Below, in pieces: positions 44,270-64,000 of a DNA stretch of 64,000 nt. Origin of the DNA: Peribolospora baueri (taxonomy: Eukaryota). The stretch spans positions 1-64,000 of the forward strand of contig JAMDHS010000101.1 in assembly GCA_029717555.1 (NCBI GenBank), read 5' to 3'. Position numbers and translations under genes: made by a program. Each line of letters opens with the position of its first letter. The stretch's first letter is position 1. The notes below the pieces were generated by a model. That model worked only from the letters and a program-made list of their open reading frames with translations. It searched no databases and was not told the DNA's origin.

Positions 44270-46085
44270 TCATGCGAACCCGAAACCCTCGCTCCCCTCG
44301 TTGATGGCGAGCAGCAGCTGCGACCGGAGCATATCGTACGACGTGTACTGCGGCAGGTCCAATTGGTTGAAACTGGTGGTACCGGCGACGAGAACAGCCA
44401 GCAGTAAACTCCGTTAGCCCCCTAAACATCCTCATCTCGTCTCGCCTCCTCTCGTCCGCCACCACTCACCACGTGTGCGCCGCCGGCAGTCGATCGTTCC
44501 CGTACGCCTTGTGAATGTTGAACTTTTGCACGCCGTTCACGCCCTGCAGGTTGGAGAAGCCCTCGAGGGGCACCTTGCTCGTCCCCGTCACAAACTGCAG
44601 CAGCTTGGCCCGCTCAAACTGGTCCAGGCTCCGCACCGCCCTCCACCACCACTGGATCACCGCCTCCGAATGGCTGTACCCATGCAGGTCCGTGTTGTTC
44701 TTCCAGCTGTCCACGTCAATGTCCGGCAGGCCCGAGATCAGCAGCTCCATCTCCTGCTCCGTAAAGATCTGGATCAGCTCGCGAGGGATGATCTCGTGGA
44801 AGCCCGTCAAGAACGCGTCGATCTGCTCCCGGATGCTCTTCGTCAGCCGCTGCTCCGTCACCAGCTTGACGTACTCGTGCTTGTTCTCCTCCGTCACCGC
44901 AATGTTCGACCCGTTCGGCTTGAGCTCGATCGTCTTCGTCTCTCCAAACTCCTCCGCCTCTACCTCAAACGTCAGGTCCATCACGTCCGTAATGTCGTTC
45001 TCCAGCATCCACTCCAGGCTCTTGTAGTACTCCGGGTCCACGCTCTCCACGTCCTTGTAGTCCACCGGCCGCCCGAGCATGTGCTTGTAGAACGACCGCG
45101 TGAAATAGGCGTCCAACAGCCGGCCGTCGTAGATCGCCTTGCCGATCACCCTTCCGACAAACTCGAAAAACCTCAGGTGCTCGCTGTTCACGTACGACGC
45201 CCGGTTCGGTTGGTACGTCAGCCGATCCGCCGCGCACGGCTGGAACAGCGCATAGTCTGGGTTGAACATTTGCCGCGCCAGCACTTGGAACCACTCGCGC
45301 GTGACGCCGCCAGCGTCGACGCCCTCCTCGTCGTAGAAGCGCACGCTCAGCTTGCCGTGTTTCACCTCGTTCCCCGTCCGTCGCTGGAGGTAGGAGTACG
45401 AGTCCTCGAACACGTACTGCCTCCGCACCGACAGCGACAACACCGCCTGGTGCTCCCTCCTCCCCTTGTGCAGCTGCTGCGTAAAGTAGTTCCGCTTGTT
45501 GTCGAACTCGAGCACCTTGGGGTTGTGCACGAGCAGCGAAAACGATCCGGACATGAGCGACGGGTTGTTGCGCACCATCACATTGAGCAGCTTGCGGTGC
45601 TGCTCGGTGAACGAGAAAAAAATGTCCTCGATAGACCCCTTGCCTTCCTCCCCGCCTCCGCCCCCGCCCACCGCGTCCGTCTCCATCGCCGTCGCCGTCG
45701 CCGTCGCCGTCGCCCCAATCTCGCCTCCCCGCTGATGCGCCGGACTCGAGCTCCTTCCTCGGGCCGTCATTCTCCTCTCCCCGTTGATCCCGCAAACACC
45801 GACGTGCTTCGATACGACCATGAGCGACTCGATCGTCGGCAGCAGTACCATCGCCGTTTGCGGATCGTCCTGCAGCTTCGACAGCACGTCCCCGAGCCTT
45901 CGCCACAGCGGCGCAAACTGGAAGCTGTCGTAGATCGCAGTCACCTTCTCCGCGTCCGTCTGTCGCGTTCCTCCTCCTGGCCCCGCGTTCACTTCGTCCT
46001 GCACAGCCAAGGCCGTGTCGTCGCCGTCAGCTCGCCGTTCTGCCGTCAACGTCTCTGTCGGCCGTCCCGCCCCTGTCGTTTCCAT
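44270..46085 (-). CDS. TOM1: C-terminal part of HECT E3 ubiquitin ligase Tom1/HUWE1 (pre-HECT helices plus complete HECT domain), ~572 aa if started at ATG 46085
   Basis: [108 protein letters not shown]. An intron at 44469-44373 splits the catalytic Cys codon (TG|T). The last exon is [34 protein letters not shown]. Confidence 0.93.
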
Positions 46086-46409
46086 CGTGCCGTTACGTGG
46101 GGCCGGTGACCGCCGGAAGGAGAGAAGAGTGTGCTTCCAGCGATTGGAGAGAGAGGATACGGCTGCGGGCAATTCGGGGACCAGGAAAGAGCTTGAGAGA
46201 TGAGATGAAAGCGGGTATGGAGAGCGGGTCGGCCGTTGTTTGTGGTGGGAAAAGAAACCAAAGTCGAATGATCGAGCGCTCGACGGTTGCCGCAGCATTC
46301 TGAGAGTCACTGCGACGGTCGACGAGAAGGGCCATCTTCCGGCGTCTTTCGCAAGCTCAGCTCGTCACACACGTTCACCGCTCTGCTCCTCTGACCTCCG
46401 CAATCGATC

Positions 46410-48019
46410 ATGGTAGCTACCGAGAGTTCCTCTGCGGTGGAGGACGTAGCGCGCAGGGCCAAGCGCGCCTTCGAGGCCGGCCAGCTCTTGTCGGACGAGG
46501 AGAGGAGCAAGGCGCTCGACGTGCTCAGGGCGGCGCTCGAGGAGCACAAGGACGACATATTGGCCGCGAACAGGAAGGATATGGAGGTGCGTCCTTCATG
46601 CTGTTGTAGCCGTTGGCCGTTGTTTGCGTTCTGACTGACCGAGATCGCCCTCTGATTCGCTGCTTGCCGCTTCTCTTGCCATCGACCTCGTTCATTATTT
46701 CCGTCCCTCCGCTCGCAGGCAGCCCGAGTGCTGGTATCGTCGGGCGTGCTCTCCTCCTCTCTTGTAAAACGTCTCGACTTGCTCTCCTCTCCTTCCAAGT
46801 ACCCCTCCATGCTGAGCGGCATTACCGACGTCGCATCGCTACCTTCTCCGACGGGCCAGATTACGTACGCAAAACGCCTCTCTGACGATCTAGATCTTTA
46901 CCGCCTTACCTGCCCCATCGGCGTCCTTCTCGTCATCTTCGAGGCCCGCCCCGAGGTCATCGTCAATATCGCCTCGCTCGCCATCAAGTCCGGAAACGCC
47001 GCCATTCTCAAGGGCGGCAAGGAGAGCAGGAACACGGCGGCTGCATTGAGAAAGGTCGTGTCCGAGGCGCTGGCCGGGACAAAGTTGCCGCGGGACTACA
47101 TCCAGATGGTGGAGACGAGGGAAGAGATTCGAGAGTTGCTCGAGCAGGACCGATACATCGACCTCGTCATTCCTCGCGGAAGCAATCAGCTTGTTCGCAA
47201 CATCCAACGCGATTCGAGGATTCCCGTCATGGGACACGCTGACGGCCTCTGCGCCGTTTACGTGGACGAGGCGGCAGAGGTGGACAAAGCGACCAAGATC
47301 GTACTCGACTCCAAGGTGAGTCGTGCTGGTGAAACCGTCGCTCTATTCTTCTCGGTAGCCTTTCCTCGCAACCGACGTCAAATTCTCGTCTTCGTTTGCC
47401 ACAGACCGACTATCCTGCCGCCTGCAACGCCGCAGAGACGCTTCTCCTGCACGCCTCTCACCTCCCTACCCTCTGGCCTCGCCTCGCTTCCTCCCTCCTC
47501 TCCGCCGGGATCACCCTACGATGCGACCCGGACACCCTCGCCGCCCTCCGATCCTCTCCAACCGCCTCCTCCCACCCATCCTTCTCTACCCACGTCCACC
47601 CAGCCTCCGAAGAGGATTTCCACACCGAGTTCCTCGACCTCACCCTGGCCGTCAAGTCTGTCCCCTCCGTACAGGCGGCCATCGAGCACATCAACGAGCA
47701 CTCAAGCCACCACACCGACGCCATCGTCACCCCCTCCGACTCGCACGCCGACCTCTTCTGCAAGGGCGTCGATTCGGCGGGCACCTTCGTCAACGCGTCC
47801 ACGCGCTTCGCCGACGGGTTCAGGTACGGCTTCGGAACGGAGGTGGGCATCAGCACCGGCAAGACACACGCCAGGGGTCCCGTCGGCTTGGAAGGGCTTG
47901 TCATCTACAAGTACGTTCTCCGAGGTCGGGGAGAGCGGGCGCACGTCGCCGGCGAGTTTTCCGACGGCACGCGCCAGTTCACCCACATAGACGTTCCGAG
48001 CGGCAGCGGGCCGTTTTGA
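46410..48019 (+). CDS. PRO2: Gamma-glutamyl phosphate reductase, 3 exons
   Basis: CPIGVLLVIFEARPEV..KSGNAAILKGGKES, IDLVIPRGSNQLV, IPVMGHADGLC, DYPAACNAAETLL (catalytic Cys), and NASTRFADGFRYGFGTEVGISTGKTHARGPVGLEGL. Confidence 0.97.
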
Positions 48020-48438
48020 AAGCGGCTCACGCTCTGCTTTTGCAAGTACCAGTACCAGTTGGAGAGACATGCATCCGCGAGTTGGATCAATCGCATCCTT
48101 TCCCCTTGGGCGGCGCGCCCAAACGATGTGGGCCTTTCGTGAGCCACACAAAGAAAGGGAGAGAGAAAGTGGGATATTGTCTTCAGCGAGGTAAACTAAG
48201 CATTACAAGAAGAGAATCCTGACCGTCCGCCGTCCTCGTTGCCGCCGTCGTATCGTTAACGTCGAATCCAAGAAAACGAGTGCACAGTATAGAGAAAAAC
48301 GATTGTTCGCTCTCCTTCCAGGCCAAAGGCCGGCGACACAGTCGAGGACGGATTGCACCCAACTCCACCTCACCTCGGTGACGGCGAAGACGTGAAGTAG
48401 GCGAGCATGGACGAGCGCCCAAGGAAGGGCTGGCCGCA

Positions 48439-51400
48439 TCACATCTGCACAGTGGCGGCACCACCACCACCACCACCCGCAGCGCCCTTGCGCCTCCTCC
48501 TAGCCTGCACAACAAGCATGCTCGCACCCAGGCCTCCGAGGAGGAGCCCCTCCGCCGCTGCACCGATGACCCTTCCCATCTCCTTGAGCTCCGCCTTGAC
48601 CGCCTCCTCCGTCGTGGCCGCCGACGTAGCGGGATCGCCGCCGCCTCCTTCCCCCCCGTCTCTCATCCCATCCGTCTCCCTTCTGAACTCTGATCCCCTC
48701 TGGGCGAGCTTTCCTCGGCCGACGATGACGAGGTCGTGCGCGGGATCGACGAGAGGGAGAAGAGTCTGGAGAGACGTGTGGATGGGCCTCGTGCGGAGGT
48801 CCGGGGCGAGGGTGGACGGGAACGTTATGAACGTCACGCCCGCGTCGACGGTGACGGCGTAGTCGGAGGCGGACGGAGATGCGGATGAGGAAGGGGTTGC
48901 TCTGGCAGCGGAGGAGGAAGAAGAGGATTGTCCGCCGGAGGTCCCTTCCGGGCCGGAGGACGACGGAGCGTGTTGGCCGACATCGCTGACTGTACCCGCG
49001 GCGGTGGAATGTGCTGCCAGCGAGGCACCCGGCTTGTCCTCGGGCTCTTCGGGAAGTAGACCTTGCTGGGTAAGGAAGAGCTTGTCGAGCAGGTGAGCGT
49101 CCCCGCGCTGGATGGTCTGGAGGTTGATGGTGTCCTCGTGCGCAGCGTCAGGGTCGAGCTGACCCGCGGCGTGGTCAAATTGCTCTGAAAGGTTGGCCGC
49201 CGCCTCTTCCCGTTCTCGAGCCTCGGACGATTTGGCCGCCTGGGCGGCCGCCTCGGTCGAAGCGGCCATGTTGAGCACGAACCCGTCCGCCTTGCCTAGC
49301 GCGGCCATGCGCTTCACTAACTCGATTGCCGCGCGATCGTCGCTGCCTCCCCAGAAGGGCACGATGATCCTCCGCCGCTTCGACAGCCTGCTACGCGGCT
49401 CAAGGCCCAGCCTCTTCTCCAGCGCCTCGCCGCTCAGCAGCCCTCTCGCGCGGCTCTCCTGCCTTTTTATTCGAGGACGGAACTGCTTCGCATCGTGGTG
49501 CTCCAAAATCCCCCGATCGATGAGAACGCCAGTGCTGCAGGAGCTCTCGTCGATGTCGCGGAAGAGCCGTGCAGGAAGGAGATGTGCCACGCCGCCATAC
49601 GCCCAGTGAGCCTCCTCCTCTTCGCCTTCGTCCGAGCTCTTGAGCCCGAGATGGCTCGCAGCGGCCGTGTTGCCGAGCCAAGAGAGACCACGCGCGGTCG
49701 TGTGAGAGCTCTCCCACACTGCCATCGCCAAGCCTCCTCCGAGAGCAGAGTCACCGTCAGCGCGAGAAGGACCGTTGAGGGCCCATTGCGCGCGGGCGTT
49801 CCTGTGAGTGAGCACGCTCACGAAATCGCCCTCGGGCACGCTGAGGATATCGCCGTAAGGCTCATAGCCTGCTCTATGGGGGCGGTATACCGACTGCGTA
49901 GGGCCGGCCAGAAACGTGGTGGTGGGAGCGCCATTGAGACGGGCGTAGTGCCGCAGGTTCTCGAGGACAACGTCGCGTCGCCGGTCGTCCGAGACGGTAA
50001 TGAGGCGCATGATGTTTGAGGTGGAAAAGGTCAGCGGCAAGAGTCGGAGGAGGTCGAGCGGCACCCGTCCCGTCAAATCTGACTTATCCTCCGCGTCATC
50101 CGCCTCAGGGCTCGGGAGGCCCAAGCTAGATATGAGCGTCATGAGCGCGACAACGTTTGGGTTGGGCGACGAAAGCGCTACGGTGATGGGGAAGTCCGTG
50201 ACGGCTCGCTTAGTGGAAAGAGTGGGCAGGTTCATCTTGACAACGTCGGGCGTCGTCTTCCCGGTATCCAGCGTCTCTAAAGTCATACCGGGCTCGGACT
50301 CTTCCTCCTCCTCTGTGCGTCCGAGATAAATCCAGCGAGAGAGAGGGCGGACGGTGATGGTGGTGGCGAGGCAGACGACAACGAGCATCGCGAAAGCCTG
50401 CCGAACCAAAAACGATGGGACCAGTGAACTTGTTTGTCAAATAGCAATAAGACTTTGCCGTCGGAATAGCAATCGCTATCTGCATTTGGCGTCGGAGAAC
50501 CAACACTCACCTTCTTTGTGACAACGTTGAGCTCCAAAGCTACGTTAAGGATGATGATCTCAATGATGCCCTGATCGGCGCGATCGTCAGGCAGCCAAGG
50601 ATAGGGTCGAGCTGGTAAGACTTCCGCAACGTAAACGGCCGACGACTGTAGACGACCCACCTTGCTCTGCATGAGGCTTCCGATGGCAAGCGCCTGCCTC
50701 CACTCCAACCCAGTGAGCCGAGCAGCGACGGATGTAGCAGTCATCTTGCTAATGAAGATAGCAACGACGAGCAGGACGATGAGGCCCCACGTTTTTCCAT
50801 CGTTGAGGAGGCGCATGTCGGTGGCGAGGCCGGAGACGACGAAATAGAGCGGCAGGAGCATACCCATCACCAGTGACTCAATGCCTTCTGTAACTTTCAC
50901 GGCGAAGACGCCGTGCGGACAGCAGATGCCGAAGGTGATGGCGCCGAGGATTGGGTGAACGCCGAGGGCAGACCTGGATGATGCGGTGGTGAAAATAAGA
51001 AAGGGTATGAGTCAAAGAGCCTTTTTTTGCAAAGGAGAACGTTCTTTCTTCTGCAGTCTTTTTTTTTCTCTAGAGGAAAGGAAACGTGGAAACTTTGACT
51101 TACGTGAAGAAGGCGGAGATGAGGGCGCCTGCCAAGGTGAACGCCAAAACGCCTTCAGGGACCTTGCCACCCTCCTCGGCCGTCTCCTCATAACCGCTCC
51201 TCTTCACCATCCAGCTCAAGATGGGCCGCACGGCTACCCATAGGAAGACGACAAAGCCGGCAAAGACGAGCAGCTCGTACAATGCGTTAATGGGCGCCCC
51301 ACCAGAACCAAGGGCGGAGCCGATGGCAAGGAGGATGTAGCCGAGCAGGTCGTTGAATACGCCAGACGCCATGGTCATGGCGCCGAGCTGGGTGGCCAGA

Positions 51401-52459
51401 ATGCCCATCTCCGCCGCGACGCGGGAGAGCACGGAGAGGGAGGTAACAGCCATCACCGTGCCGACGAAGACAAAGAAGGTCTGAGGGCAGCGTCGGGAGA
51501 AGGAGAAAAGAAACACATAATGTCAGCGTCCTTGTTCTGACTCTGATTAGATTTGAAATTCGAACAAGGCATAGAGAGAAGTCTCACAGTAAACTTGATC
51601 GTCTGATCCGTCTCGGTCTTCCAGACAAGGTAGGACAATCCGGCGGAGATCGCAAAAGGGATGGCCATACCGGGCAGGACGATAGCAAGTACCTTCTTCA
51701 AGTACCGGGCCATGAGCGCGATGTCAGTCTCTAGGCTGTGGGAAAGGGGAGGGGAGCAGAGGGAAGGTTAGAAGAGGTGAGCGAGCGTCAAAGGGCAGAG
51801 GCTATGGGAACCTGGAGCGTGTGTAGCCTCCTCCCTCGCGAACCCGGCACGGCATCATGATGGACCGCAACCCACCCAACCATAAACAAAAAGAAAATCA
51901 ATCCGATGTTGGCCGTGACCGACAACAGCGGAATAGCATCGTGAGGAATGATGCTATTCGTAAAGCCGGGGATATTACCAAAGGCCGTGGGCCCTAGAAG
52001 CACGCCAGCCAAGATCTCTGAAATTTTTGGCGCAAAAAGGAGAAGAGTCTGGGTTGAGAAATCCAGAGAACAAGCTGAAGGACGTAATGCCAGCCCGAGC
52101 GGCGACGTACCTCCGACCACCTCGGGTTGGTTGATCGCTTTGAAAGCAGAGCCGAGCAGACGGCAGAGGATGATGATGATACAGACCTGTGCCGATACAG
52201 AAGGGACGTAAGGGGAGGGAGAAGGAGGAAGGAGGTGGTTAGCCCGCCCAACCCCGCCCCCATTGTTGACCTCCTCTGCTCCCCCGCATAGAAAGGCGTT
52301 CGACGTCCCGACGGGACAGGCTCACGCCGCGAATCAGCTCACCTGAACGAGAAAGAGCGCAAAGCCATTATTGGGGTCGGTGTAGCTGGTTGGGTCAAAT
52401 AAGAGCGGATTGGCGTGGGAAAGGTAACCGACGTGCGAGTGGTTGGAGAAGGGGGACAT
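48439..52459 (-). CDS. Cation/H+ antiporter (CPA2, Kha1-like), multi-exon
   Basis: FALFLVQ|VCIIIILCRLL..QPEVVG|EILAGVLLGPTAFG, ANIGLIFFLFMVG|LETD, VTSLSVLSRV, LGVHPILGAITFG, LLPLYFVVSGLATD and GSLMQSK|GIIEIIILNVALE. The C-terminal domain contains IIVPFWGGSDDRAAIELV. Confidence 0.9.
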
Positions 52460-53696
52460 CGTGCGCCACGGGCAAATCGTTTGCTGGTGGCAGTCGCCGT
52501 CGTTGCCGTCGCCGTTCGCTCGTGGTAGCCGTTATCGTTGGAACGGCGCGAAGAAAGAGAGAGTAGGTCGCGGGGTAGGCGATCAGTCGCGCGACGCCAT
52601 CGACGACGTGGAACAGGGTGCAAGCCGTGGAAGACGGGAGATGGAGAAGAGGAGAGAAGGGGGGCGGTGGCTCCTACTGTTACTGTACAGACGTTACTCT
52701 ACAAACACCCCACCAAATCTCAGTCAGGTCCTCGTTGGTGGTCGGTCGTCGATCGTTGTTGGCCGTCGGCCGCCGGCCCCGGCCCTTCCTTTCCCACTCG
52801 ACGCCCCTCTCGCGCATTGGCGGCGGGCGCCCGCAGGTGCGACGACCACGTGGACAGCCCGCATAGCCGCAGCAATGATGCAAGTGCAAATCGGGCACGT
52901 GATCTTCGCTGCGGCACGAAGCACAAAGGCTTTCTTCTTCTCCTTCTCCTTCGCTCCCTCCACCTCTTCTCTCCTTGCTCAGAACCACGACAGGAATCCT
53001 TTCTTTCGCCTTCCCTCGCTTCTCGCTCTGGTCGCAATGTCACAGCGCTTCTCCTTGAACGACGGCTCTCGCGCTCTCTGCCAAACGAGCAGACGCTTGC
53101 CTCGCACCGAACAGTGCCCATTCTTCCTCTCTTTTCCTCTATACCTCTCGTCCATTGCCGTCTCAATTCACATCGTACCTCCTACACCCCCACGAGGTCC
53201 AGGTGTTACTAAGGGCGGCGAGAGCGATTCTCTTGACCGGAGCGGTTGTACGCAACCGTTCCTTCTGGGCGTTTTTTCGGATGGCGGACGATTCTCCCGG
53301 GCCGTTTGTCCCTACGAGGCACCCAACATACCTTGTTCATTTCGCTCGTCTTTTCCGTTCCGATTTCATAGTCTCCTCTGTCTCACACGCTCATCTCAAT
53401 GGAAAGACCGCTTGGATATACGAACGAACAACTTGGAATTGAACACCTTGGACTTGATGAGACAAGCTATGAACATGACGGATGAGGTGGATGGGACGGG
53501 TGCGGGGAATGGAACAAACACAAGTCGAGCACCGACGTGCACGGGGAAAACGAAAGATGCTATGAAAGACTTCGGACGGGGACAGCAGCGAAGACTGGGG
53601 ATAGGGCATCAAGACCAGAATGAAGGGCTTTTCGGACCGACGGAGCGAAGCATTGAGATGAAACCGGAAAAAGGGAGGGTGGGTAGGTAGCGTCAA

Positions 53697-56600
53697 TCAA
53701 GGGTGCGGCTCGTACATATAGTCGAGCACCTTCAGGCAGCGCAGCATTCTGCTCTGCACCGCGTCTGCAGGCGAGAATCTCCCGAGCGCCAAACTCCTTG
53801 GCTCGGGCTGATGAGTCCTCTCGCTCTCCTCCAGACCCTTCACCAACGCGTCCAAGTCGCCCACCAGAGCCGTACCGAACTCTTCGATGCGCGTCCGGAG
53901 CTCGGTTGCGATGACCTCGCGCGAGTCGTGGACGTGCGACAGGTGCAAAATTAGCGCGAGTGTCTGCTGGAATGTCTTGCTCGTACATTCACCCGCCGTC
54001 AGGATATTCACCACCAGCCGAAGCACGTGCGCGGGGATTTGTGGCGGCCGCGTCAGCTTCAGCTGGTTCGGGGCAGAAGCATCTGCGCCAGCAGTCAACG
54101 ACGGACCGGCTTCTCCTTGTGCCGGCCTGCCGCTTCCCACCCCAGGTGACCCTTGTAGAGCCTCAGTCGCCTGCGCGGCAGAATCACCGGCCGTTGGCGG
54201 CTCAGTTGGCTGGCCGGGCCCGCTTTGTCCTTCTTGTTCGCTCGCCTCTTCCTTCTTGAGGGAAGTCAGCGGCCGGGTGATGGTGGACAGGAGGCTGGTA
54301 AATGATTCCATAAGAGCGGGCGTCTTGAGCAAGCTCGGGCGGTCGAGAAGACCGAGCAGAACCACGATCGGATACTTTGTCGCTGGCGACGGCTTCTCCT
54401 TCTCCTTGCCTTTCCCCTTCTTCGTTTGCGACCGCTTGAGACCCACAGGCACGTCGCTCTCAGTGAGGAAGAGAAGAGGCACCTGAGGGTTGGCAGCGAC
54501 GAGGTGCGCCAGAGCGTCGAAGGAGCGCTGCGCCAGCAAGTTCGGCACGTTCTCGCCAGGCATGTGAGCGAGAGGGCCTCCGGACCCAAAGAGGCCTGGC
54601 GTCGTCATCGCCGGCTCAGGGTTCGTCTTCTGTCGCTTCGGCGTCGGTCTCGGAATAATACCTTTGCCAGCGCGTAGGGGCGCTTGTGAGAAGCTCCTAT
54701 CCATGGCCTGCGGATCGCTCGTGCCGTCTTGAAGAACAGTGAGAAGAAGGTTGAAAAGCTCGGTTCTCGTCTTGGAGTTCTCCGAGAGATTGGCTAGTAC
54801 CTTGTGCAGCGCGCCCCTCTTGTTCATCTCCGGGAAGAACAGTAGTCGCACGAGCGTAGCCACGCCAGCCTTATCCAGGAGCTGAATAGCATCTCGCGAC
54901 GGACTTGCCTTCTTAGACGACCCTGCCGCCGCTGCGCCTTGCTCGTCGCGTTGCCTGCCAGATTGGCCGAACAGACGACGAGATTGCCTCGGTGGCCACC
55001 AATTTACTTCGGCAAGCATCGCCGGGGGCAAGGTCTGAAGGAAAGTCTCATCTTGATCCAGGAGAACGGTTTGGCGAAGGCTCGGGTCCAGGCCGGCGAG
55101 GAAACTGGCTGAGTCGATCTCCGCTGGCTGGCCCGCGGCCTCTTGACCACCCTCTCCGGCTACGCCTTCGCCGCGCTGTCGGCGCTGCTCCAATGACCGA
55201 CGGCGAACTTGTTCCAGTGCCTCTTGCTGAAGGACTTCGGCCCGGATCTCAGGAGGGAGGGCTTCCAAAAATTCGGGGCTGATATTGGTGTCCTGAGGCG
55301 CAGCCGCGGGCTCTGCTCTACGTTCGCGGAAGTGCTGGTTCAGCACCTCCTCCCGCATGTCGTCTGGGAGAGCCTCAAGGAAGCTCGGATCAATGCCCGT
55401 ATCAGTAATGTCGATCGAGTTTCCGTGGACGGTGACAGTGACCCTCTCTGGCTGACCGGCCTGTTCGGATACGCCTCCACCTTCTCCATTGCCGGAGGGA
55501 CTCCTAGCGCCGGCGGTCGGAGTACCATGGGCGGCGGATACCGCGCCTGCCGGCGTGCCACCCGGCGTGAGGGCTTGCTGCAAGTCCCTCAGCTCCATCG
55601 CCTCTGCCGAAGACCCTGGAGCACTGTCGCTCACGTCTTCCATCTCTGCGTCGTCGTTGGAAGCGTGAGCGGCCGCTTCCGCTGCCTCTCTCGCCACGCG
55701 CTCCTCCTCTGCCCTTCTAGCCTCCTCCTCCGCCTTCCTTGCTTCTTCCTCCGCCTTTCTCGCCTCCTCTGCTTTGCGCTCCTCCTCTCGCTTGGCCTCT
55801 TCTTCCCTTTCCTTCTCTCGCCGCTGCTTTTCCTCCTCTTCCTTGCGCTTCTGTTCTTCCGCCTGGTGCACCCAATAGGCCGGCAGAAGGGCGTTCAGAA
55901 CGTGGTTGCGGAAAGACATCCACGACGACGAAGAAGGGTTGACGATGCGCGACTCTTCCTGCCAACGCTGCACGGTCGTAATCGGGGTGAAAGATTGGAC
56001 CTGCATGACGGGGTCGTAAGGCCTGGAGGCAGGCACGCCTTGTTGGCCGCCACGGGCTGTGATAACGGCAGTGGCTCGCGGACGCCGCTCAAGCCCTCGA
56101 CCTCCTCCGAGCTCGCCGATCGTAGCCACAGCGGGCATCCGCATTGGCCCGTGTCCGTGCCCATGTCCATGCGGAAACTCGATGTGAATATCCGTTCCGT
56201 GCGCCGCACCGCCACGACTGAGAAGCGTTTCAAGGAAGTTGAGCACTTCTCCACCACCGCCGCCGATTAGATCATTGATCGACTGCGCCCAATCGCTAAA
56301 CGTCGCTTGACGACCGTCTCTGTGTGCGCGGCGAGCACCGTATGGAGCCGGAGGCGTAGCGCCCTCCGTGCGGTCGACTAGTAACGGGTGAGACGTCATA
56401 TCGTCGTCCCCTCTTCGTCTGCCACCGGTCATAGTCATTTCCCCGTAGTCTGTCACGACGCAAAGGAAGTAGATGATGGATGTCAGAACCCAAAGCTCAC
56501 ATCATGGTAGATACCAGAGGCACTCACCCAGGAGGCGGTTTCGTCGACCACCACCAACCATGCTCATCATATGCCCTGGCATGCCCGATGGGCGAGAACC

Positions 56601-59600
56601 GCGAGCACCTTCGGCGTCGCGAGCGAATGGCAGAGTAGTCCAGCCCCAGTTGGCGCCAAAGCGGTCATCAGAGAGCCCGGCTGGCGGCTCGCCCGAAAAG
56701 TCAACCTCCTCATTCTCGAAGAAGTCTTCCTCCTCGTCCATGATCGACTGCTCGCCGTCATCGTCTTCATCACCATCGAATAAGGGTCCATCTAGAACAA
56801 TTTGATCCTCGTCCACATCAACTTCTTCGACGATAGGACCGGCTTCGCCACCAAGATCGCCATCGGCCGCACCGAGAACGTAATCGAGAGCTTCGCCATC
56901 CTCATCGTCTTCGTCATACCTAAGGGCAAGCATTTCTCATCGACAGTCAGCAACACTTCAACGTGATGAAAGAACTAAATGAGCACTCACTCTTCTTCTT
57001 CATCCTCGTCTCCACCTTCGTCTTCATCGTCTTCGTCCACCCATTCACCCCCACTTCCGCCTTCGTCGTTCTCGTCATCGTCGCTGTCTTCATTGTCGTC
57101 CTCGTCTGCATCCTCGTCATCGTCATCGATAACAACGTCCACATGCTCGTCAACATGGTGCATGTCGTCAAGATCGTCGTCCTCGTCACTGCGCGTCAAG
57201 AAGTTGGCAGAAGTCAGATCGGAATTCTTCGCGGCGGTCACAGCAGCAATGCTCACCTCGCATCGCTGTCCCCGAGGGTACCATCCTCCCCGTCGTACAT
57301 TTCCTCATCGTCATCCTCCTCGTCCATGTCATCATATTCATCTGAAAGTGAGTCAGGCAAGACTGCATCAGCGCGCCTATCCACGTAAATAGTTCCAGCG
57401 GAAGGCCATTCTAGAGCTGACAACAACGGTGAAGTTGGGGAGATGGATACTCACCCTCGTAATCCATGCCTTCCATCTCCCCGGTGTGCATCCCGAGCGA
57501 CGACGTGCGGTAGAAATCTGGAGTCTCCTCCCGGTCAGTATAATCGACCGACTCGTCCTCGCTCATCATATCTTCGTCCGAGACCTCGGACTCTGAATGC
57601 TCCTCTCCTTTGTCTGCTCCATGGCCCTTCGAGGAGCGATCCGCCTTGCCCATCTTGATCGCGACTTTCGTGAGAAGCTCGAGGGGACGGAGGATCTCGT
57701 CCAAAAGCGCCTTCACGGACGGCAGGTTGAGATCGACATCGGCAAGCGCGTTGGTGAGGACCGTGACGTAGTTCTTCTCCAGCATCGTCTTAGCGATGTG
57801 CAGCGTTGAGTCTTCGCCATGCTTGGCTGAGCCGTTAGGTCGAGCCGTGAGGAGTCGGTGAGTGAGGTCAGCCAAAGCGTAGAGACGCCCATAACGGAGC
57901 TCGATGGGCTCGGCCGAGGCGGAAGCGTCTTTAATAGCCTTGGCAATACCATCGAGGACGAACTTGCGGACAGAGACTAGCTCTGGAGAGACGTCCTTGA
58001 CGTCCTGGTGAGTGGCTACGTCCGCGGTGAGTGCGACAAGAACGGACATGGCCCAGTTGGAGAGCGTCATTCGCTTGCGAAGTTCGTGAGAGAACTCAGT
58101 CTACGAAAAGGGAACCACCACTCATGTCAGTCTCGATATTTTACGGAACTCCTAGTCGATATAACGCCAGACTCACATGAAGGAAGCCGAGCGGGACCAG
58201 TTCCGTGAGGAAGAACGAGAGAACGGCCGCCTTCGGCTTGATCGGCGTGGCAGGATCCCTGCTGCCCGAACGCTTCTTGCTGAAGTTGATAAAGCTCAAC
58301 TTGCTGGTCGTGTACGATGAGAGGAGCTCGGTGAGGCACTGCATGATGAAGCACGTGCAAAGGTATGGGGCGTCCTGCTCCTCCTGCGCGCCCTCGCCAC
58401 TTTGTGGGCTGGTAGAAGCCGCGCCGCCGTTGACACTCTCAACCGGGGCAACATCTTGAGTGCCGCCAGCCTTGACGCCGGTAGAGTCTTTCTTGCTTGC
58501 AACTGAGCCAGTTCCAGTCGCAGCTGCCTTGGAGTGCTTCAAAAGCTCGGAGAGCAAGAAGTGTATGGCTGAGTCAAGCGCCTCGTTCGGCACCAGTGCA
58601 GGCGGGAGAAGGGCCACCTTCGACGGTTCGTCAACTTGCATATGCCCACCGGCCTTGGTGGGCGAAGCAGAATGACCGCCACTCTCCTTGGTCGCTTCCG
58701 GAGACTTATCGCTCGGCTCCTCCTTGAGCTTGATGTAGCCCGATCCTTTTTCGGTGTTGAATTCGGCCAGCTCAACCGACGCCTTAGCCGCCTCGACGAA
58801 AACATCAGGGTCGCGATTGGCGGCCATGTTGTAAGAGCGGATAAAGTTGGACACATCGGTCAGCTTGTTGCGGCCAAGGGCGAAATAGGCCCGCATCTCG
58901 TTTTGCATGGCCGTCCTCAGTGTCGTCGTGTCCTCGGTGATGTGTCGGAGGATAGTTATGACCAACGGCTGACAGCCTGCAACCTCTTTCGGCGAATTCA
59001 ATAACGACTTGAAGATCAACTGCAACCCGTTCTGATTGACGAACTCGGCCGCCATGTCGTGTCGTCGGGTCAATAGAACAAGGGTACGCATAAGCGCCAG
59101 AAAGTCGCCCCTGAGCAATGTAGTCGATTCGACCCTGCGCAAAACGACCATGCATTGCTGGAAGATGAAAGAGCGAGCCTCTTGGAATAGCGGTGCCCTG
59201 CGCACACTGACATCAGACGGTATCTCGTCTTTGCCCAACAACTTGACATCCCGAGGTTCCTCGTCGATACCCAGAAGCGCGTCCGCGACGAGAAACTCAG
59301 AGGCGAGCCACCTGGGCAGAGGTGAGGACGATGGCTCGCGACGCATGAACTCCTTCGCGAGCGCGACAACACAGTCCATCGCTCGACAGGCCTTTCTGTC
59401 GTCCATCTTCGGGCTGCTCAGCGACGTGTCATTGAGGATAAGGGCAAGCAAGCGGAACCGCACAGCGATGGTGGCCTCTTTCTCGTCGAATGCTGCTCCT
59501 TGGGCATCGTCGATGTCCTTCAGGAGAACGTCGAACGCGTTCTGGCCATCGCTCTTGATGGACGACGAGGTAAAGGCATCTTGCACGTCGAATACGAGTG

Positions 59601-62600
59601 GTTCGTGGTGATCGGCGAGCTCAAGCGCACGGCGAACGAAACCTTTTTCTAGGTCAAGCCGTACAGACTCAAGCTGCTCGCGAGGAGGTGGAGAGGGTTT
59701 CTCCGGTTCTTTGCCCTTGTCGCCCGGGTTGGCTTGCTCCTTCTCTCCCTCGTCGTTTGAGCGTTCGCAGTCATTGTCGTCCATCGCGACATCGTCTGCG
59801 TCTGCATCGTTTATAGACGTATCGCCCTCCGCCCTGGCGCCTGAAGTGTCAGCGGACGTCGACGTTTCGTCGCCTCCAGCGCGCTCGCCCTGGGACTGCC
59901 TCTCGTCAGCATTCTCTGGTGGCTGAGGCGTCGACGAGGAAGAAGTCCTATCCCGCGAAGCGCTTGCCGTGAGCTCCGGGTGCATGAGGAGGTATTCGGT
60001 GGCAGCGCTGAGGTTGTTGTGGCAGCGCACCAATGCGTTCTCTGCGGCCTCGCGAGAGAAGCCCATGTCCATTAGCTGGCGAACCTTATTCTCGTCTGGC
60101 ACCGTAAGTACCTGCATGCTCCGACGCATGGTCAATCCCGCAAGGCCACCTGCACTGAAAGGTGACGCGACACCGCTGCCCGTCCCGCTGCCAAGACCGC
60201 TGTCCGGCTTAGGGGGGGACTCTTCGCCCTCGCGCTTTAGGATGTTGAGAATGATTTGCACGACGGATCGATTGATGCTGAGCGGCAAGGAGGCGAGCCA
60301 GGGCTTGTCCCATATCTCGCGAACGGCCGGAAGGATGGCGGCGCGAAGCTTGATAAGCAGCTCGTGGGGGTCAAAGTAATCTGGCGAGTCGCGGTTTCTG
60401 TCGCGGGAGGTCAGGACCGTAGTTTGAGCCGCTTCCAGCAATGGTTTGGCGGCAGAGAGCGACTGAAGGAGGTTGAGGACAACCTTGAGACCGCCACAGA
60501 CGTGACCAAGTCGGATACCGGCATCCTGGTCCGGCTTCTGAACGGTGCCATCAAAGTTTGAGTCCACTTCGGCGATGTAGCGTCGGAGGATCTCGAAGAG
60601 CAACTCCGGGCCGCCAGCACGCTGGAAAGGGATTAGCAGGACAGTTTGAAGACCTTGGCCGGGGCCTTCGCCGAAGATCAATGTCGTCGTGTGCCCGACC
60701 ATGACCGTCGCATACGCGAAATTGTTGGCTTCGTTGGACGAGCCTCGCCATCTCAAATGCTCAACCACGACTCCAGCTACCACCTCTGCGATCCGCCGAG
60801 CTTGCACCACGTCAGGGTTACGGCGGTACAAAAGCATCTTGATGACGTCCTGGAAGAAGGACGAGAGTGAGATGGGGATTTGCGCTGCTAGGTACCTAAG
60901 CGCCCTGCCGTTGTGCATGCGCCTCTCTTGCGGTGCGTTGGGCGCAGTCGGCGCCAACTTGATGTTGCTCTCCACGGAGCCAACTTGGACGTCGAAAAGC
61001 ATGTCGTTGGGGAAGCCGGCAGCCGTTTGGTGGGGCTGCTCTACCTCTCGAGGGTGCGACGAATATTGCGCAGAATCGGTCTGAGAGTCGATGGCTGCCT
61101 CCGGAGAAGCGGGCTTCTCCTCCTCTTTCCCTGAAAGCGGCAACTGAGGGAGGACGGACTTGAGCAGGATGTTTTCCCACGTACACGTGCGCTGCAAAGC
61201 TCCAAGGCGAGCCAGCACCTGCTGCTCGTCGGTCCCATTAAGAACGCCAAGGAAAGCCGTGGCGACCTTGCCCGACGAATAGCCAAGCGTTTTGCACACA
61301 TCACTGAGAAGATGTGTACGTGCGTTGAGGCTGACGAGAACCCGGAAGCTTTTGTTGGCCTCGGCAAGCTGCTCTCCAGCTGGCAAAACAGAAAAGGGCT
61401 AGATATGAGTGGGTGTGCAACCTTTGGCTAAGGGGTGGAAAGTACATCCGACTCATGAAGCTAGGCACTCACGAGACACGTCCAACATTGGCAGCATCCT
61501 GCTCTCCGCAGAGGAACCCGCTCCCTCGGCTGCCCAAACCTGCCCGCTCTCCTCCAATGCAGTCTTGACGGCATTCACGAGCGCCTGCATTACCGTCTGT
61601 GGCTGTATCTCGCTCATGGAGCGTATCAGCGTAATCATCGAGTCGGCTGCCATGGACGATGCGAAGTCGTATGGAAGGCAGGGAGACGCGTACAACCGCG
61701 ACAGGCGCTCCATGCCGTCCGCCTTAAGAAAATCCTTGCAGTGCGAAACGGTCTGCATGAAGCTTTCAAGGAACTGGAGAAACGCAGAAAATGCCCGGTG
61801 GTAAGCACATCGAACGACAAGGGAGAGTCGCGCACGTTGGAAACCTCACCCTCGCAATCACGTCCATGTACGCGACGACGCGGTTGTCCTTCTGACCGCC
61901 GTCCTTCCTAAAGATATCGCTCTCATCCATCACCACATCGGCCAGTGCTACAGAGCGGGGAGTGGGGCTGCTAGGCACAAGGCCACTTTGAGTAGCTGTC
62001 ACCGTCGTAGAAGAGGCGGAGAGCCCTGCGCCCGTGTCTCCCATATCCACGTCCTCTGCTGTCGTCCCAAGCCTGCGATCCTGTTCGGACACAGCTTGGA
62101 GAGCATAGAACGATTGCTGACCCTCGTCGGGAACAAACTCTTGCCCCTCGCGCTCGATCGTCTCAAGCGTATGGATGATGGAATCGAACACTCTCTGTTT
62201 TAGGCTGGGATGATGTCGAATAAGCTCATCAATGGCAGAGCCGAGCATGCTGGCGTTGTCCCTGTCCTGAAGAACTTTGGTGTGGCGCTGAGACGTGAAG
62301 ATGCCGAAGAGCTTTGGGATGACCTCTTTGCTGTTGAATAGGTCCAGCCCTGCCTGGTTGAGGCAGAGCGCTCCAACAGCGTTAGGTATGGAGATGATAA
62401 CGTCCCAGCTCGCCCCAATGTCTTGCTCGACGACGGCGTAAAACGCCTCAGGCAGCTTGGCCTCTTCCAGAACGCCCAGGCTGGTTGGCTCGTTGTGGAC
62501 AAAGGTGGCCATAATATTGATGGCCAGTGCCAGGATCTGTGGCCCGAAAACGGTGCGGTTCTCCATGATCATGCGGATCGACTGCAGGAGGGTGCTGTCG

Positions 62601-64000
62601 ATGAGGTTGCGAAGACCATCGGCGGTACCAGTCGAAGTCATCATGTGAGAGAGTGACTTCAGCATACTCCTCAAAAGGCTCGCTCGTCCGAATGGCAGTT
62701 TGCCGTAGACGTTGTCTTGGTGTGGCGGCGCCGAACTAGCGGCCAGAGGAGCTGAATCCAACTCTTCGCCGGATAGTCGGATATCGTACTCGACCTCCTC
62801 CTTGATCCTGCGCACAAGCGTCTCGAGGCCCTGCGCGTTGCAGAAAAGGCCAAAAGCAGGCTGGAACGCGTAGATGATGCTATCGAGCAGGCCGACGGCG
62901 CGAGATATGGTGCGGCAGACAAGGAAGGACTTGGGCTCGGGGATTTGAATAAACTGCACGAGCAGAGGGATGATGCCGGCGCTGACAACCATATTACTGC
63001 CGGCGGGACTTGAGGAGATGAACGCGATGAAGCCTAAGAGACTATCGATGAAACCGTCGCTCGCCCGCGGTGGGTCAACAGCAAGGTCGGAGAGAGCCCG
63101 ACGGATAACGTTAAGGAGGATGCCATGGTTGAGAGAGGCGTTGACGGCCCCCAACGTTTCTGACAACTTGCCACGATATCTGCCTATAGCGTCAAGAGCG
63201 TACAACGCCGCGCTCTGCACCTCTTGTGGCACGTCCCGTTCAGGGCGGATCAACTCGACCAAGCTTTGGACGAGGTCGGGCTCATACAAGAAGAGGCGAG
63301 TGTTCGCGGTGGCCTCGGAGGCGATGTGCGCTGCGCGGAAGAGATACGGAACAGGGATCACAATATAAATGCGCCATACAATAAAGACAAGCTGAAACAC
63401 ACAGAGGCGGGGCGATACTCACCAAAAATTGCAATCGCGAGCAACCTCATCACCAACATCTGCTGCCTAGCCGCCGGATTCTGTATGTTCTGTGCCACTC
63501 GGATCTTCTGATATAGCGCGAAGTGGTCTTCCTTCGGGACTTCATTGTCCTGAGCTTGGGCGAGGAGCACATCGATGGCGCGATCGCCAGACTTGGTGAC
63601 GTCGCCCAGGTCGATTATGGTCAGACCTTCGTCGGTACCGGACGCTCCTTCCTTCCCCCCTGGCGCACCAGCAACTCCTGCTCCACTAGGACCAGGCGTC
63701 GTTACGGACGTCGGCGGTCCTCCAAGTGTGGCAGCTCGCTGGGGTACGCCTGGGCGAGATGGTCGAGAGGGCGTTGCGAAGATGTCCCTGTCGGCCTCCA
63801 CTCTGTCCTCCCTGAATCCATTCGCACCTAATTCACCCTGCCTATCCAACACCCTCGAGGGATCGGTGCGACGGAAAAACTGGAACTGCACCGTCTTGAG
63901 CTCGTCTGAAATCTGAGTCTCTGGCTTGGCGAGGTCGACGATCTCAACGCCGTGCTCGCGTGTGTTCCATCCTCGGGCTAGGCAGAGCAGGCGCTCTTCG
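53697..64000 (-). CDS. TOM1: N-terminal and central part of Tom1/HUWE1 (DUF908/DUF913-type solenoid, UBA, acidic region, UBM repeats), ending in a stop before any HECT domain; 5' end off-window
   Basis: Exons include ORFs 63358.., 61766.., 58141.., 57411.. and 53697... Motifs: LALAINIMATFVHNEPTSL, IDELIRHHPSLK, UBA (VRQLMDMGFSREAAENALVRCHNNLSAATEYLLMHP), ETPDFYRTSSLGM, and three UBM-like repeats (IDPSFLEALPDDMREEVL; ISPEFLEALPPEIRAEVL; FLAGLDPSLRQTVLL). Also RDAIQLLDKAGVATLVRLLFFP and ILTAGECTSKTF; ends RMLRCLKVLDYMYEPHP*. Confidence 0.92.

What the first reader, a model, noticed from the sequence alone, without database searches (positions are those of the whole stretch)
44270..64000. Split TOM1/HUWE1: scaffold and HECT halves separated by two complete unrelated genes
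Seen: the Tom1 N-terminal/central coding sequence ends with TGA at 53697 (..LKVLDYMYEPHP*) and is followed by pyrimidine-rich UTR-like sequence. The next Tom1 segment ([16 protein letters not shown].. through the intact HECT domain and its AHTC motif) resumes ~7.6 kb downstream on the same strand, in the correct order. An intact same-strand Kha1-like gene and an intact opposite-strand PRO2 lie between. I saw no frameshifts in either half. Known: Tom1/HUWE1 is normally one very large polypeptide forming an alpha-solenoid ring capped by the HECT domain. Inference: the break falls in a variable linker. The locus may be a gene fission giving a two-subunit ligase (non-catalytic ubiquitin-binding receptor plus a ~570-aa catalytic subunit). 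Alternatives are a giant gene-hosting intron or trans-splicing.
Basis: partly seen in the sequence, partly recalled or inferred. Interest (0 to 1): 0.92.

Follow-up and report, generated by a model that had tools for sequence, protein, structure and literature searches.

The report
Naturally split Tom1/HUWE1 ubiquitin ligase
This fungus encodes the giant Tom1/HUWE1 ubiquitin ligase as two separate genes, a scaffold gene and a catalytic gene with two unrelated genes between them, and the same break is found throughout the smut and Malassezia group of fungi, so it is an old, conserved gene fission rather than an error.

Summary
On the minus strand, the Tom1 scaffold reading frame ends ..LKVLDYMYEPHP-TGA at 53699-53697. 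The HECT part is a 572-aa gene model at 46085-44270, with one 97-nt intron and an intact catalytic Cys. A Na+/H+-exchanger gene (same strand) and a complete PRO2 (opposite strand) lie between them.

It is not a misassembly. Independently built read contigs of two organisms about 98.5% alike carry the same order.

The same break is annotated across Ustilaginomycotina. HECT-less scaffolds end at the homologous helix in U. maydis UMAG_05564, Tilletia and Tilletiaria. Stand-alone HECT proteins of 540-743 aa were listed for 22 named species, among them U. maydis UMAG_03442 and Malassezia. In 70 of 70 contiguous relatives the junction is one open exon, so no ancestral intron lies there.

The window's HECT half is sister to all sampled Ustilaginomycotina copies (support 100/99). 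Unlike in U. maydis, its halves are still 7.6 kb apart and collinear.

By alignment to solved yeast Tom1, the break lies inside the last armadillo-like domain (ARLD4), about 120 residues before the HECT domain.

Best reading: an ancient gene fission. Non-covalent reassembly of the two proteins is inferred, not shown. I found no paper describing it. This scan earlier noted a split HUWE1 in red algae.

The parts
53697..64000 (-). Tom1 N-half gene (scaffold: ARLD1-3, UBA, acidic region, UBM, first part of ARLD4). The 5' end lies beyond the window, about 150 codons missing. Several short introns.
   Evidence: ORFs; translation; Pfam DUF908, DUF913, UBA and UBM; collinear tblastn with Calocera and Sporobolomyces Tom1; introns with GTGAGY donors at 57454, 57256, 56990 and 56527.
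63092..63969 (-). DUF908 region (split by an intron)
   Evidence: Pfam PF06012 in ORF 63358..63999 (profile 95-278) and ORF 61766..63418 (profile 277-357).
61850..62905 (-). DUF913 region
   Evidence: Pfam PF06025, E 3.5e-90, residues 172-523 of ORF 61766..63418.
59974..60099 (-). UBA domain
   Evidence: Pfam PF00627/PF22562, residues 434-475 of ORF 58141..61398.
55314..55412 (-). Best of three UBM (ubiquitin-binding) repeats
   Evidence: Pfam PF14377, E 8.2e-30, 3 stretches, best at residues 364-396 of P0001.
53697..53699 (-). TGA stop of the N-half, 6 codons after the conserved helix ..LKVLDYMY
   Evidence: junction alignment.
52300..53696 (.). Spacer between the N-half stop and the exchanger gene start (presumed 3' end of the N-half plus the exchanger promoter). 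The lower bound is approximate.
   Evidence: Sequence; three-frame view of the exchanger 5' region; ORF 52428..53690(+) has no Pfam match.
48439..52300 (-). Start approximate; completeness not verified.
   Evidence: Pfam PF00999 in ORFs 50283..51011 and 51100..51522; N-terminal TM-like exons.
46411..48019 (+). PRO2 (gamma-glutamyl phosphate reductase), complete, transcribed divergently from the HECT half
   Evidence: ATG read; tblastn of 458-aa P0312 over residues 2-458; Pfam Aldedh; homologues named PRO2 or glutamate-5-semialdehyde dehydrogenase.
46086..46410 (.). 325-nt divergent spacer between the PRO2 ATG and the HECT-half ATG; presumed shared promoter region. Contains an alternative in-frame ATG at 46298.
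   Evidence: Substitutions between the two organisms are denser here and in the N-tail.
44270..46085 (-). Tom1 HECT-half gene: exon 1 46085-44470, intron 44469-44373, exon 2 44372-44270 including the stop; 572 aa
   Evidence: Gene model; Pfam HECT E 6.5e-88; 65-71% identity to stand-alone HECT halves of Ustilaginomycotina.
45792..45968 (-). Residues 40-98 of the HECT half: three helices that correspond to the end of ARLD4 ([16 protein letters not shown].., ..[15 protein letters not shown])
   Evidence: Aligned to yeast Tom1 chain residues 2789-2841 of 9mhp. 13 invariant and 7 nearly invariant columns among 19 split-type sequences. Helices in a low-confidence model.
44372..44471 (-). Catalytic Cys codon: TG at 44471-44470 and T at 44372, split by the 97-nt intron

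Best explanation
TOM1/HUWE1 has undergone a gene fission here. One gene (53697 to beyond 64000, minus strand) encodes a HECT-less solenoid scaffold with DUF908/DUF913, UBA and UBM modules. It stops just after a helix inside ARLD4. A second gene (46085-44270, minus strand) has its own start codon and lies 325 nt from the divergently transcribed PRO2. It encodes a short unconserved tail, the last ~120 residues of ARLD4, and a complete HECT domain.

Shown:
- the arrangement is real;
- the same break exists as two annotated genes across Ustilaginomycotina, on different contigs in U. maydis and Tilletia;
- the ancestral junction was a continuous exon;
- both halves stay conserved.

Inferred:
- The fission is a single old event in the stem of this group. 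The window's lineage is sister to all sampled members and still holds the halves 7.6 kb apart and collinear.
- The two proteins reassemble without a covalent link. In solved yeast Tom1 the final solenoid repeat and the first HECT helix pack on the preceding repeat and also on the N-terminal Head domain to close the ring. The HECT half would therefore clasp both ends of the scaffold and restore a Tom1-like ring ligase.
For: Real arrangement:
- A 24,379-nt Logan contig covers 45723-58000 with 0 differences.
- A 26,040-nt contig of a second organism is collinear over 44274-58000, with 174 substitutions, across both junctions.

Same break elsewhere:
- I searched with the last 450 aa of the N-half (393 hits at E<=0.001, 150 listed).
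- 7 clusters (8 listed representatives) end 3-121 residues after the homologous helix and lack HECT. Four clusters are named: U. maydis UMAG_05564, Tilletia walkeri/indica, T. horrida and Tilletiaria.
- All 11 named full-length hits I looked up belong to other fungal groups.

Stand-alone HECT halves:
- They have their own Met and an unconserved tail before K[IV]YExFxF.
- They were listed for 22 named Ustilaginomycotina species, including UMAG_03442 and two Malassezia.
- Among proteins of 1107-3160 aa carrying UBM plus HECT, none of the named ones is from Ustilaginomycotina.

Unlinked halves in relatives:
- The longest contigs differ between the two halves: U. maydis 560,724 vs 733,962; T. walkeri 30,180 vs 24,330.
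- 7 metagenome loci have no scaffold in the 5.3-10 kb upstream; the 3 put in the tree fall in the Malassezia clade. In the 3 examined, a kinase and UBR1 flank the HECT gene.

No ancestral intron:
- In 70 of 70 contiguous loci the junction is one frame without stops.
- All 5 donors read in this locus are GTGAGY, whereas the only usable donor at the break is GTACGA.

Placement: the window's HECT half plus Ustilaginomycotina form a clade with support 100/99, and the crown without the window has 100/100. They share a 3-residue deletion.

Constraint:
- Catalytic Cys and HECT are intact.
- The ARLD4 remnant has 20 of 53 columns at least 90% conserved, against 0 of 47 in the N-tail.
- The last helix of the N-half is conserved to its end in the crown species.
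- 5 of 5 crown N-halves keep DUF908, DUF913, UBA-like and UBM.
- Between the two close organisms, codons 48-572 show 6 synonymous and 6 non-synonymous changes. The tail shows 2 and 6, plus an in-frame 3-nt deletion.

Structure:
- The break maps to chain residues ~2779/2789 of yeast Tom1 9mhp.
- This lies inside ARLD4, aa 2456-2889 (preprint 10.1101/2024.11.25.625210, passages).
- The Head domain contacts the final repeat that leads into the HECT domain (preprint 10.1101/2024.07.08.601072, passages).
Against: - No call shows separate transcripts or two proteins for this organism or any relative. The separate genes in relatives are database annotations.
- A formally in-frame donor/acceptor pair exists (GTACGA at 53715 with ..ctctcaag at 46192), so reading frame alone does not exclude a 7.5-kb intron here.
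- I could not search the rest of this genome for a second, intact TOM1.
- Single origin is not proven. The N-half tree leaves the window unresolved (held together with the crown: lnL 3.63 better, AU p 0.67, which does not demonstrate a clade). Neighbouring genes are not shared with the Malassezia-type loci.
- The C-terminal scaffold region of the crown species sits on a long stem (1.28 changes per column). That could mean relaxed constraint at the supposed interface.
- The synonymous/non-synonymous counts are small.
Confidence: 0.78

Rival explanations
1. True fission, but the halves no longer work together. The HECT half acts as a free-standing small HECT ligase, and the scaffold has become a HECT-less ubiquitin-binding protein with its own role.
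For: The halves are unlinked in U. maydis and Tilletia. The scaffold's C-terminal region evolved fast on the stem of the crown group (1.28 changes per column). The HECT half has its own unconserved N-tail.
Against: The non-catalytic ARLD4 remnant of the HECT half is as conserved as the HECT domain: 20 of 53 columns at least 90% conserved across 19 sequences. The last helix of the scaffold is conserved right to its C-terminus in the crown species. Both genes were found in each of the 3 species where both were named (U. maydis, T. walkeri, T. horrida). In solved Tom1 these elements pack on each other and on the Head domain.
Confidence: 0.15
2. One gene with a giant 7.5-kb intron that hosts the exchanger gene and PRO2, removed by cis-splicing from about 53715 to about 46192.
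For: Same strand and correct order. One in-frame donor/acceptor pair exists, and the acceptor is preceded by a pyrimidine-rich stretch.
Against: There is no intron at this place in 70 of 70 contiguous relatives. The donor would be GTACGA, whereas the 5 introns read in this locus use GTGAGY and are about 60-110 nt long. Relatives with the same break have the halves on different contigs, where cis-splicing is impossible. A same-strand complete gene would sit inside the intron.
Confidence: 0.04
3. Assembly artefact, or a recent disruption that left two decaying pieces.
For: A large insertion in a conserved gene is a common signature of misjoins or pseudogenes.
Against: Independent contigs of four runs from two organisms bridge both junctions at depth about 77-118. 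There are no N in the window and no significant repeat at the junctions. Both halves have open frames, an intact catalytic Cys and deep conservation. The split is shared with a whole subphylum.
Confidence: 0.02
4. Trans-splicing of two separate pre-mRNAs into one Tom1 mRNA.
For: It would also reconcile unlinked halves with a single protein.
Against: No call supports it. The HECT halves of relatives are annotated with their own Met and unrelated N-tails of very different lengths (the first conserved motif after the tail, MVRxNP, sits at residue 137-328), and the scaffolds end in stop codons after unrelated short tails. That spliced-leader-type or exon trans-splicing is not a known feature of these fungi is my recollection, not a call.
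Confidence: 0.01

Closest known systems
S. cerevisiae Tom1 / human HUWE1 (solved full-length structures 9dns, 9dnt, 9eld, 9egk, 9mhp; 7jq9, 7mwd)
   Same: Same domain content in the same order: DUF908, DUF913, UBA, acidic region, UBM, ARLD4 helices, HECT with catalytic Cys. The HECT-half E-value against Tom1 chains is 2e-154.
   Different: Those are single polypeptides, listed as monomers in the review PMC13196369 (passages). Here the chain is broken inside ARLD4, about 120 residues before the HECT domain, into two genes 7.6 kb apart.
Annotated gene pairs of Ustilaginomycotina, e.g. U. maydis UMAG_05564 (3702 aa, 'uncharacterized / UBA domain-containing') plus UMAG_03442 (571 aa, 'HECT-type E3'); Tilletia walkeri A4X09_0g5202 plus A4X09_0g5834
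   Same: Break at the homologous place: the scaffold ends 3-6 residues after the ..L[KR]xL[DEN][YW].. helix, and the HECT half starts with its own Met and tail before K[IV]YExFxF. They share a 3-residue deletion and form one clade with the window.
   Different: There the halves sit on different contigs. Here they are adjacent but for two genes, and collinear. The window's scaffold end resembles full-length Tom1 (47% identity to Calocera) more than the crown scaffolds (36-39%). The tail after the helix differs (EPHP vs TGR/VGR).
Split HUWE1 of hot-spring red algae
   Same: A HUWE1/Tom1-type ligase encoded as a detached scaffold gene and a separate catalytic gene (an AI note that I did not check).
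   Different: A different kingdom; two facing genes next to each other; break point unknown to me; surely an independent event.

Membership tests
Tom1/HUWE1 subfamily of HECT E3 ligases | C-terminal HECT domain with catalytic cysteine | tested here: met
   Pfam HECT E 6.5e-88. AHTC is restored across the 97-nt intron and the C-terminus ..GFGFA is complete.
Tom1/HUWE1 subfamily of HECT E3 ligases | N-terminal DUF908-DUF913 solenoid with UBA and UBM modules | tested here: met
   The first ~94 profile positions of DUF908 lie outside the window.
Tom1/HUWE1 subfamily of HECT E3 ligases | Orthology by tree and best matches | tested here: met
   Collinear tblastn with Calocera and Sporobolomyces Tom1. 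Best solved matches are Tom1 and HUWE1. The sequence falls inside the fungal Tom1 tree.
Tom1/HUWE1 subfamily of HECT E3 ligases | Scaffold and HECT domain in one polypeptide | tested here: not met
   There is a stop at 53699-53697 and two complete genes lie between the halves. Relatives have the same break as separate genes. Transcripts were not examined.
Split Tom1 of Ustilaginomycotina (defined here from database proteins) | Scaffold ends just after the ..LxxLDY.. helix of ARLD4, and the HECT protein begins with its own Met and an unconserved tail before K[IV]YExFxF | tested here: met
   Junction alignment of 6 full-length, 8 scaffold and 9 HECT-half sequences.
Split Tom1 of Ustilaginomycotina (defined here from database proteins) | Common descent with the other split copies | tested here: inconclusive
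   HECT tree: the window is sister to all 17-18 sampled copies, support 100/99. N-half tree: unresolved, constraint not rejected (AU p 0.67). No shared neighbouring genes. A second, independent break at the same loop is not excluded.
Nested-gene (gene-hosting) intron | Spliced junction joining the flanking exons | not testable with these tools
   No transcript data could be laid on the window; see Tried and rejected.
Nested-gene (gene-hosting) intron | Intron present at this position in relatives, and splice signals like the locus's other introns | tested here: not met
   0 of 70 contiguous relatives have an intron there. The donor would be GTACGA, against GTGAGY in 5 of 5 local introns.

The most novel reading that the evidence does not exclude
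The window preserves a near-original state of an ancient fission that defines Ustilaginomycotina. In this reading, a two-gene block landed in a coding loop of ARLD4, and the divergent PRO2 promoter became the promoter of the new catalytic gene. The 572-aa HECT subunit now docks non-covalently as a clasp on both ends of the >3,000-aa scaffold ring. Tom1 activity in smuts and Malassezia would then depend on assembly of two separately expressed proteins. That makes it a natural split-ligase system in which the catalytic subunit could be dosed, exchanged or regulated independently of the scaffold.
Probability: 0.3. Interest if true: 0.78.

Novelty: new variant of a known kind. Interest (0 to 1): 0.62.

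Why it matters
Tom1/HUWE1 is treated as the archetype of a giant single-chain HECT ligase. Its activity needs an intramolecular ring closure next to the HECT domain (review PMC13196369 and both Tom1 preprints, passages seen).

A whole fungal subphylum breaks the chain inside the solenoid yet keeps both parts conserved. The group includes the genetic model U. maydis and the skin commensal Malassezia. This offers a natural test of three questions: whether the covalent link matters, how the last solenoid repeat and the HECT domain are held on the ring, and whether scaffold and catalytic subunit can be regulated separately.

It also matters for annotation and gene-family surveys. The scaffolds are labelled 'uncharacterized', 'UBA domain-containing' or 'DUF913-domain-containing', and the HECT halves 'related to ubiquitin-protein ligase 1'. 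The fungal HECT survey PMC5913265 counts one TOM1 in U. maydis and treats domain-poor TOM1 sequences as potentially truncated (passages seen).

The window's lineage, with both halves still side by side, is the best place to ask how the fission arose.

Tried and rejected
- Whole genome: none is held for this window, so I could not search for a second TOM1.
- RNA evidence: no RNA holder listed. Only DNA contigs could be laid, so transcript ends and splice junctions are untested.
Verdict 'no answer': scores 0.70, 0.71 and 0.67, but one unrelated-protein control scored 0.73. Halves of a split gene also resemble solved single-chain structures. It counts neither for nor against binding. The tool did not use my alignments.
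- AlphaFold2 of the HECT half from a 19-sequence alignment: mean pLDDT 54. This is too poor for a fold search. I used only the helix positions, with caution.
- Relic of a junction duplication. A 38-nt, 71% direct repeat (46291-46328 vs 53740-53777) reads FSxxxAVxxRMLR in frame in both places. It is not above chance: DNA local score 24 vs shuffles 20.6 +/- 2.3, and protein score 30 with 21% of shuffles as high.
- Synteny. The PRO2 search was swamped by conserved homologues and gave no locus tags of use. No PRO2, exchanger or scaffold lies in the flanks of the 7 split-type metagenome loci. The kinase and UBR1 that flank the 3 of them I examined are not in the window. Whether the window's arrangement is ancestral stays open.
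- The idea that the two inserted genes were the old downstream neighbours of TOM1 (tandem duplication followed by loss): no PRO2 or exchanger within 10 kb in any of 80 loci. These are mostly distant fungi, so this is weak.
- Cerrena zonata 634-aa HECT protein looked like a split outside the group. Its sequence runs through the junction without a break, so it is a truncated model of a contiguous gene. L032, which had no scaffold hit at first, is one 3290-aa ORF with DUF908, DUF913, UBM and HECT.
- Literature. These searches found no description of the split:
  - 'UMAG_03442 / UMAG_05564 / um03442 / um05564' (0 papers);
  - Tom1 + HECT + gene fission + Ustilago;
  - HUWE1 + split + Ustilaginomycotina;
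  - gene fission + fungi + ubiquitin ligase + HECT;
  - Tom1 + Malassezia + Ustilago maydis + HECT domain + two genes.
  Passages of PMC5913265 and PMC3673628 do not mention it. Supplementary tables of these papers were not read. The one held supplement of the Malassezia proteogenomics paper PMC5389616 had no HECT, TOM1, DUF913 or HUWE1 entry.
- Earlier notes of this scan: nothing near this place or by sequence.


Full report
**What is in the sequence**

All Tom1 pieces lie on the minus strand.
- The last scaffold ORF (53697..56501) ends ..LRCLKVLDYMYEPHP-TGA (stop at 53699-53697). Pyrimidine-rich sequence without Tom1 similarity follows.
- Upstream ORFs carry DUF908, DUF913, UBA and three UBM repeats.
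- The acidic region is interrupted by four short introns with GTGAGT/GTGAGC donors, so no frameshift is needed.
- The gene runs off the window at 64000.
- The catalytic part lies in ORF 44466..46364. From the ATG at 46085 it gives a 572-aa product. A 97-nt intron (44469-44373) splits the catalytic Cys codon, and the product ends ..GSEGFGFA. An upstream in-frame ATG at 46298 would add 71 residues.
- Calocera Tom1 matches the window collinearly. Residues 2541-3127 end at 53709 and residues 3137-3632 restart at 46043, so the halves abut without overlap.
- Between them lie a Na+/H+-exchanger-family gene on the same strand and a complete PRO2 on the other strand. The PRO2 ATG (46411) is 325 nt from the HECT-half ATG.

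**Not an artefact**

The window has no N and no significant repeat at the junctions. Contigs built independently from public reads bridge both junctions.
- One 24,379-nt contig is identical over 45723-58000.
- A 26,040-nt contig of a second organism is collinear over 44274-58000 with 174 substitutions (16 + 45 + 113), about 1.3%.

The first two runs may be the source of the window. The second organism is very close. Together this excludes a misjoin but adds little evolutionary depth.

**The same break in a whole subphylum**

I searched 1.84 billion representative proteins with the last 450 aa of the scaffold. There were 393 hits at E<=0.001, of which 150 were listed.
- Full-length relatives continue for 502-540 residues after the match.
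- 7 clusters (8 listed representatives) instead end 3-121 residues after it. Six of them end ..LRAL[DEN]Y[LI][MLY][TV]G[RK].
- The named ones are U. maydis UMAG_05564 (3702 aa), Tilletia walkeri/indica, T. horrida and Tilletiaria anomala.
- Five of five tested keep DUF908, DUF913, UBA-like and UBM, and have no HECT.
- All 11 named full-length hits that I looked up are from other fungal groups: Calocera, Mycena, Sporobolomyces, Ambispora, Saitoella, Geopyxis, Actinomortierella, Hesseltinella, Fimicolochytrium, Sarea and Phycomyces. Two further look-ups were unnamed.

The pre-HECT region of the catalytic half finds stand-alone proteins of 540-743 aa in 22 named Ustilaginomycotina species. These include U. 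maydis UMAG_03442, Sporisorium, Tilletia, Ceraceosorus, Meira, Exobasidium, Violaceomyces and two Malassezia (493 hits, 120 listed).
- Each has its own Met and an unconserved tail before K[IV]YExFxF.
- A 23rd species, S. scitamineum, was listed only as a partial 383-aa fragment.
- One apparent exception, a 634-aa Cerrena protein, reads straight through the junction and is a truncated model.
- Among proteins of 1107-3160 aa with UBM plus HECT, no named one is from Ustilaginomycotina. That search could not see proteins above 3160 aa.

The two halves sit on different contigs in U. maydis (longest 560,724 vs 733,962) and in Tilletia.

**Ancestral state**

Of 80 metagenome loci that encode a relative of the HECT half:
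- 70 have the scaffold end and the HECT start in one frame with no stop, separated by -24 to 168 nt.
- One has only a partial scaffold match.
- One has too little upstream DNA to tell (L042).
- Seven have 5.3-10 kb of upstream DNA without any scaffold (L001-L004, L006-L008).
- One Tilletia-like contig (L005) has only ~0.7-0.9 kb upstream.

In the tree, L001, L004 and L006 fall in the Malassezia clade and L005 falls with Tilletia. In L001, L004 and L006 the HECT gene lies between a protein kinase and UBR1.

So the break arose in a coding exon, not at an old intron.

**Placement**

The window's HECT half is 65-71% identical to the stand-alone copies and 55-65% identical to the full-length proteins compared. 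It shares their 3-residue deletion. It is sister to all of them:
- quick tree, 35 rows: 100;
- careful tree, 29 rows: 100/99, with the crown without the window at 100/100.

The scaffold tree does not resolve the window. Holding it with the crown is not rejected, and that tree is slightly better (lnL +3.63, AU p 0.67). The crown scaffolds sit on a long stem of 1.28 changes per column, and the window's scaffold end still looks like full-length Tom1.

**Where the break lies in the structure**

Against solved yeast Tom1 (9mhp chain numbering):
- the scaffold's last helix aligns to 2768-2779;
- the first conserved helix of the HECT half aligns from 2789.

In yeast this is a loop of about 9 residues. 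The Tom1 preprint gives ARLD4 as aa 2456-2889 and the catalytic module as aa 2890-3268 (10.1101/2024.11.25.625210, passages). The break is therefore inside ARLD4.

A second preprint states two things (10.1101/2024.07.08.601072, passages):
- the first HECT helix helps to close the ring.

The HECT half would thus touch both ends of the scaffold. This is the basis for the inferred reassembly.

Conservation agrees with this. Across 19 split-type sequences, residues 48-100 of the HECT half have 20 of 53 columns at least 90% conserved, against none in residues 1-47. Between the two close organisms, the conserved part shows 6 synonymous and 6 non-synonymous changes. The tail shows 2 and 6, plus an in-frame 3-nt deletion. 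These numbers are small.

**Rivals**

A 7.5-kb gene-hosting intron is formally possible. Donor GTACGA at 53715 and acceptor at 46192 are in frame. Three things argue against it:
- the donor is unlike the five GTGAGY donors of the locus;
- no relative has an intron there;
- relatives with unlinked halves cannot cis-splice.

Direct transcript or protein evidence is missing. The complex prediction gave no verdict (see Tried and rejected).

**Known or new**

Five literature searches and passages of two HECT surveys and a 2026 review gave no description of this split. The proteins are in public databases under uninformative names. The architecture may therefore have been broken more than once.

**Verdict**

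This is a real, conserved gene fission of Tom1/HUWE1, a new variant of a known ligase. In this lineage the two halves are still neighbours.

Noticed in passing
window 43388-43590: Block of short tandem repeats, (GTCT/GTCA)n and (CCAT/CATT)n, about 700 nt downstream of the HECT-half stop. Read contigs of all four runs break or branch here.
   Followed up: no
window 45644-45722: GCC/GTC-rich triplet run inside the HECT-half coding sequence. It encodes the alanine/threonine- and glycine-rich variable loop between the ARLD4 remnant and the pre-HECT helix. The read tool skipped it as a repeat, but contig coordinates stay collinear across it.
   Followed up: partly
window 48298-48393: In the second organism, 94 nt between the convergent 3' ends of PRO2 and the exchanger gene are replaced by 19 other letters.
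   Followed up: no
window 38120-39583 (-): ORF with an RRM_2 domain (PF04059, E 4.5e-33), the Mei2-type RNA-binding motif. Its neighbour ORF 39349..41538 has no Pfam match.
   Followed up: no
L001 11810-17902, L004 11500-17244, L006 11535-17084: In these three Malassezia-clade metagenome loci, the stand-alone Tom1 HECT gene lies tail to tail with UBR1, the N-recognin E3 ligase, and downstream of a protein kinase. This neighbourhood is shared by the three loci.
   Followed up: partly
proteins P0176, P0084, P0173, P0128, P0074, P0172, P0133 (C-terminal 370-410 aa): The ARLD4 part of the crown-group scaffolds sits on a very long stem (1.28 changes per column). The HECT halves of the same group sit on a short one (0.24-0.34). 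Evolution after the fission was therefore strongly asymmetric.
   Followed up: partly
window 46291-46328 and 53740-53777: A 38-nt, 71% direct repeat that reads FSxxxAVxxRMLR in frame both at the end of the scaffold gene and upstream of the HECT gene. It is not above chance in shuffles.
   Followed up: yes
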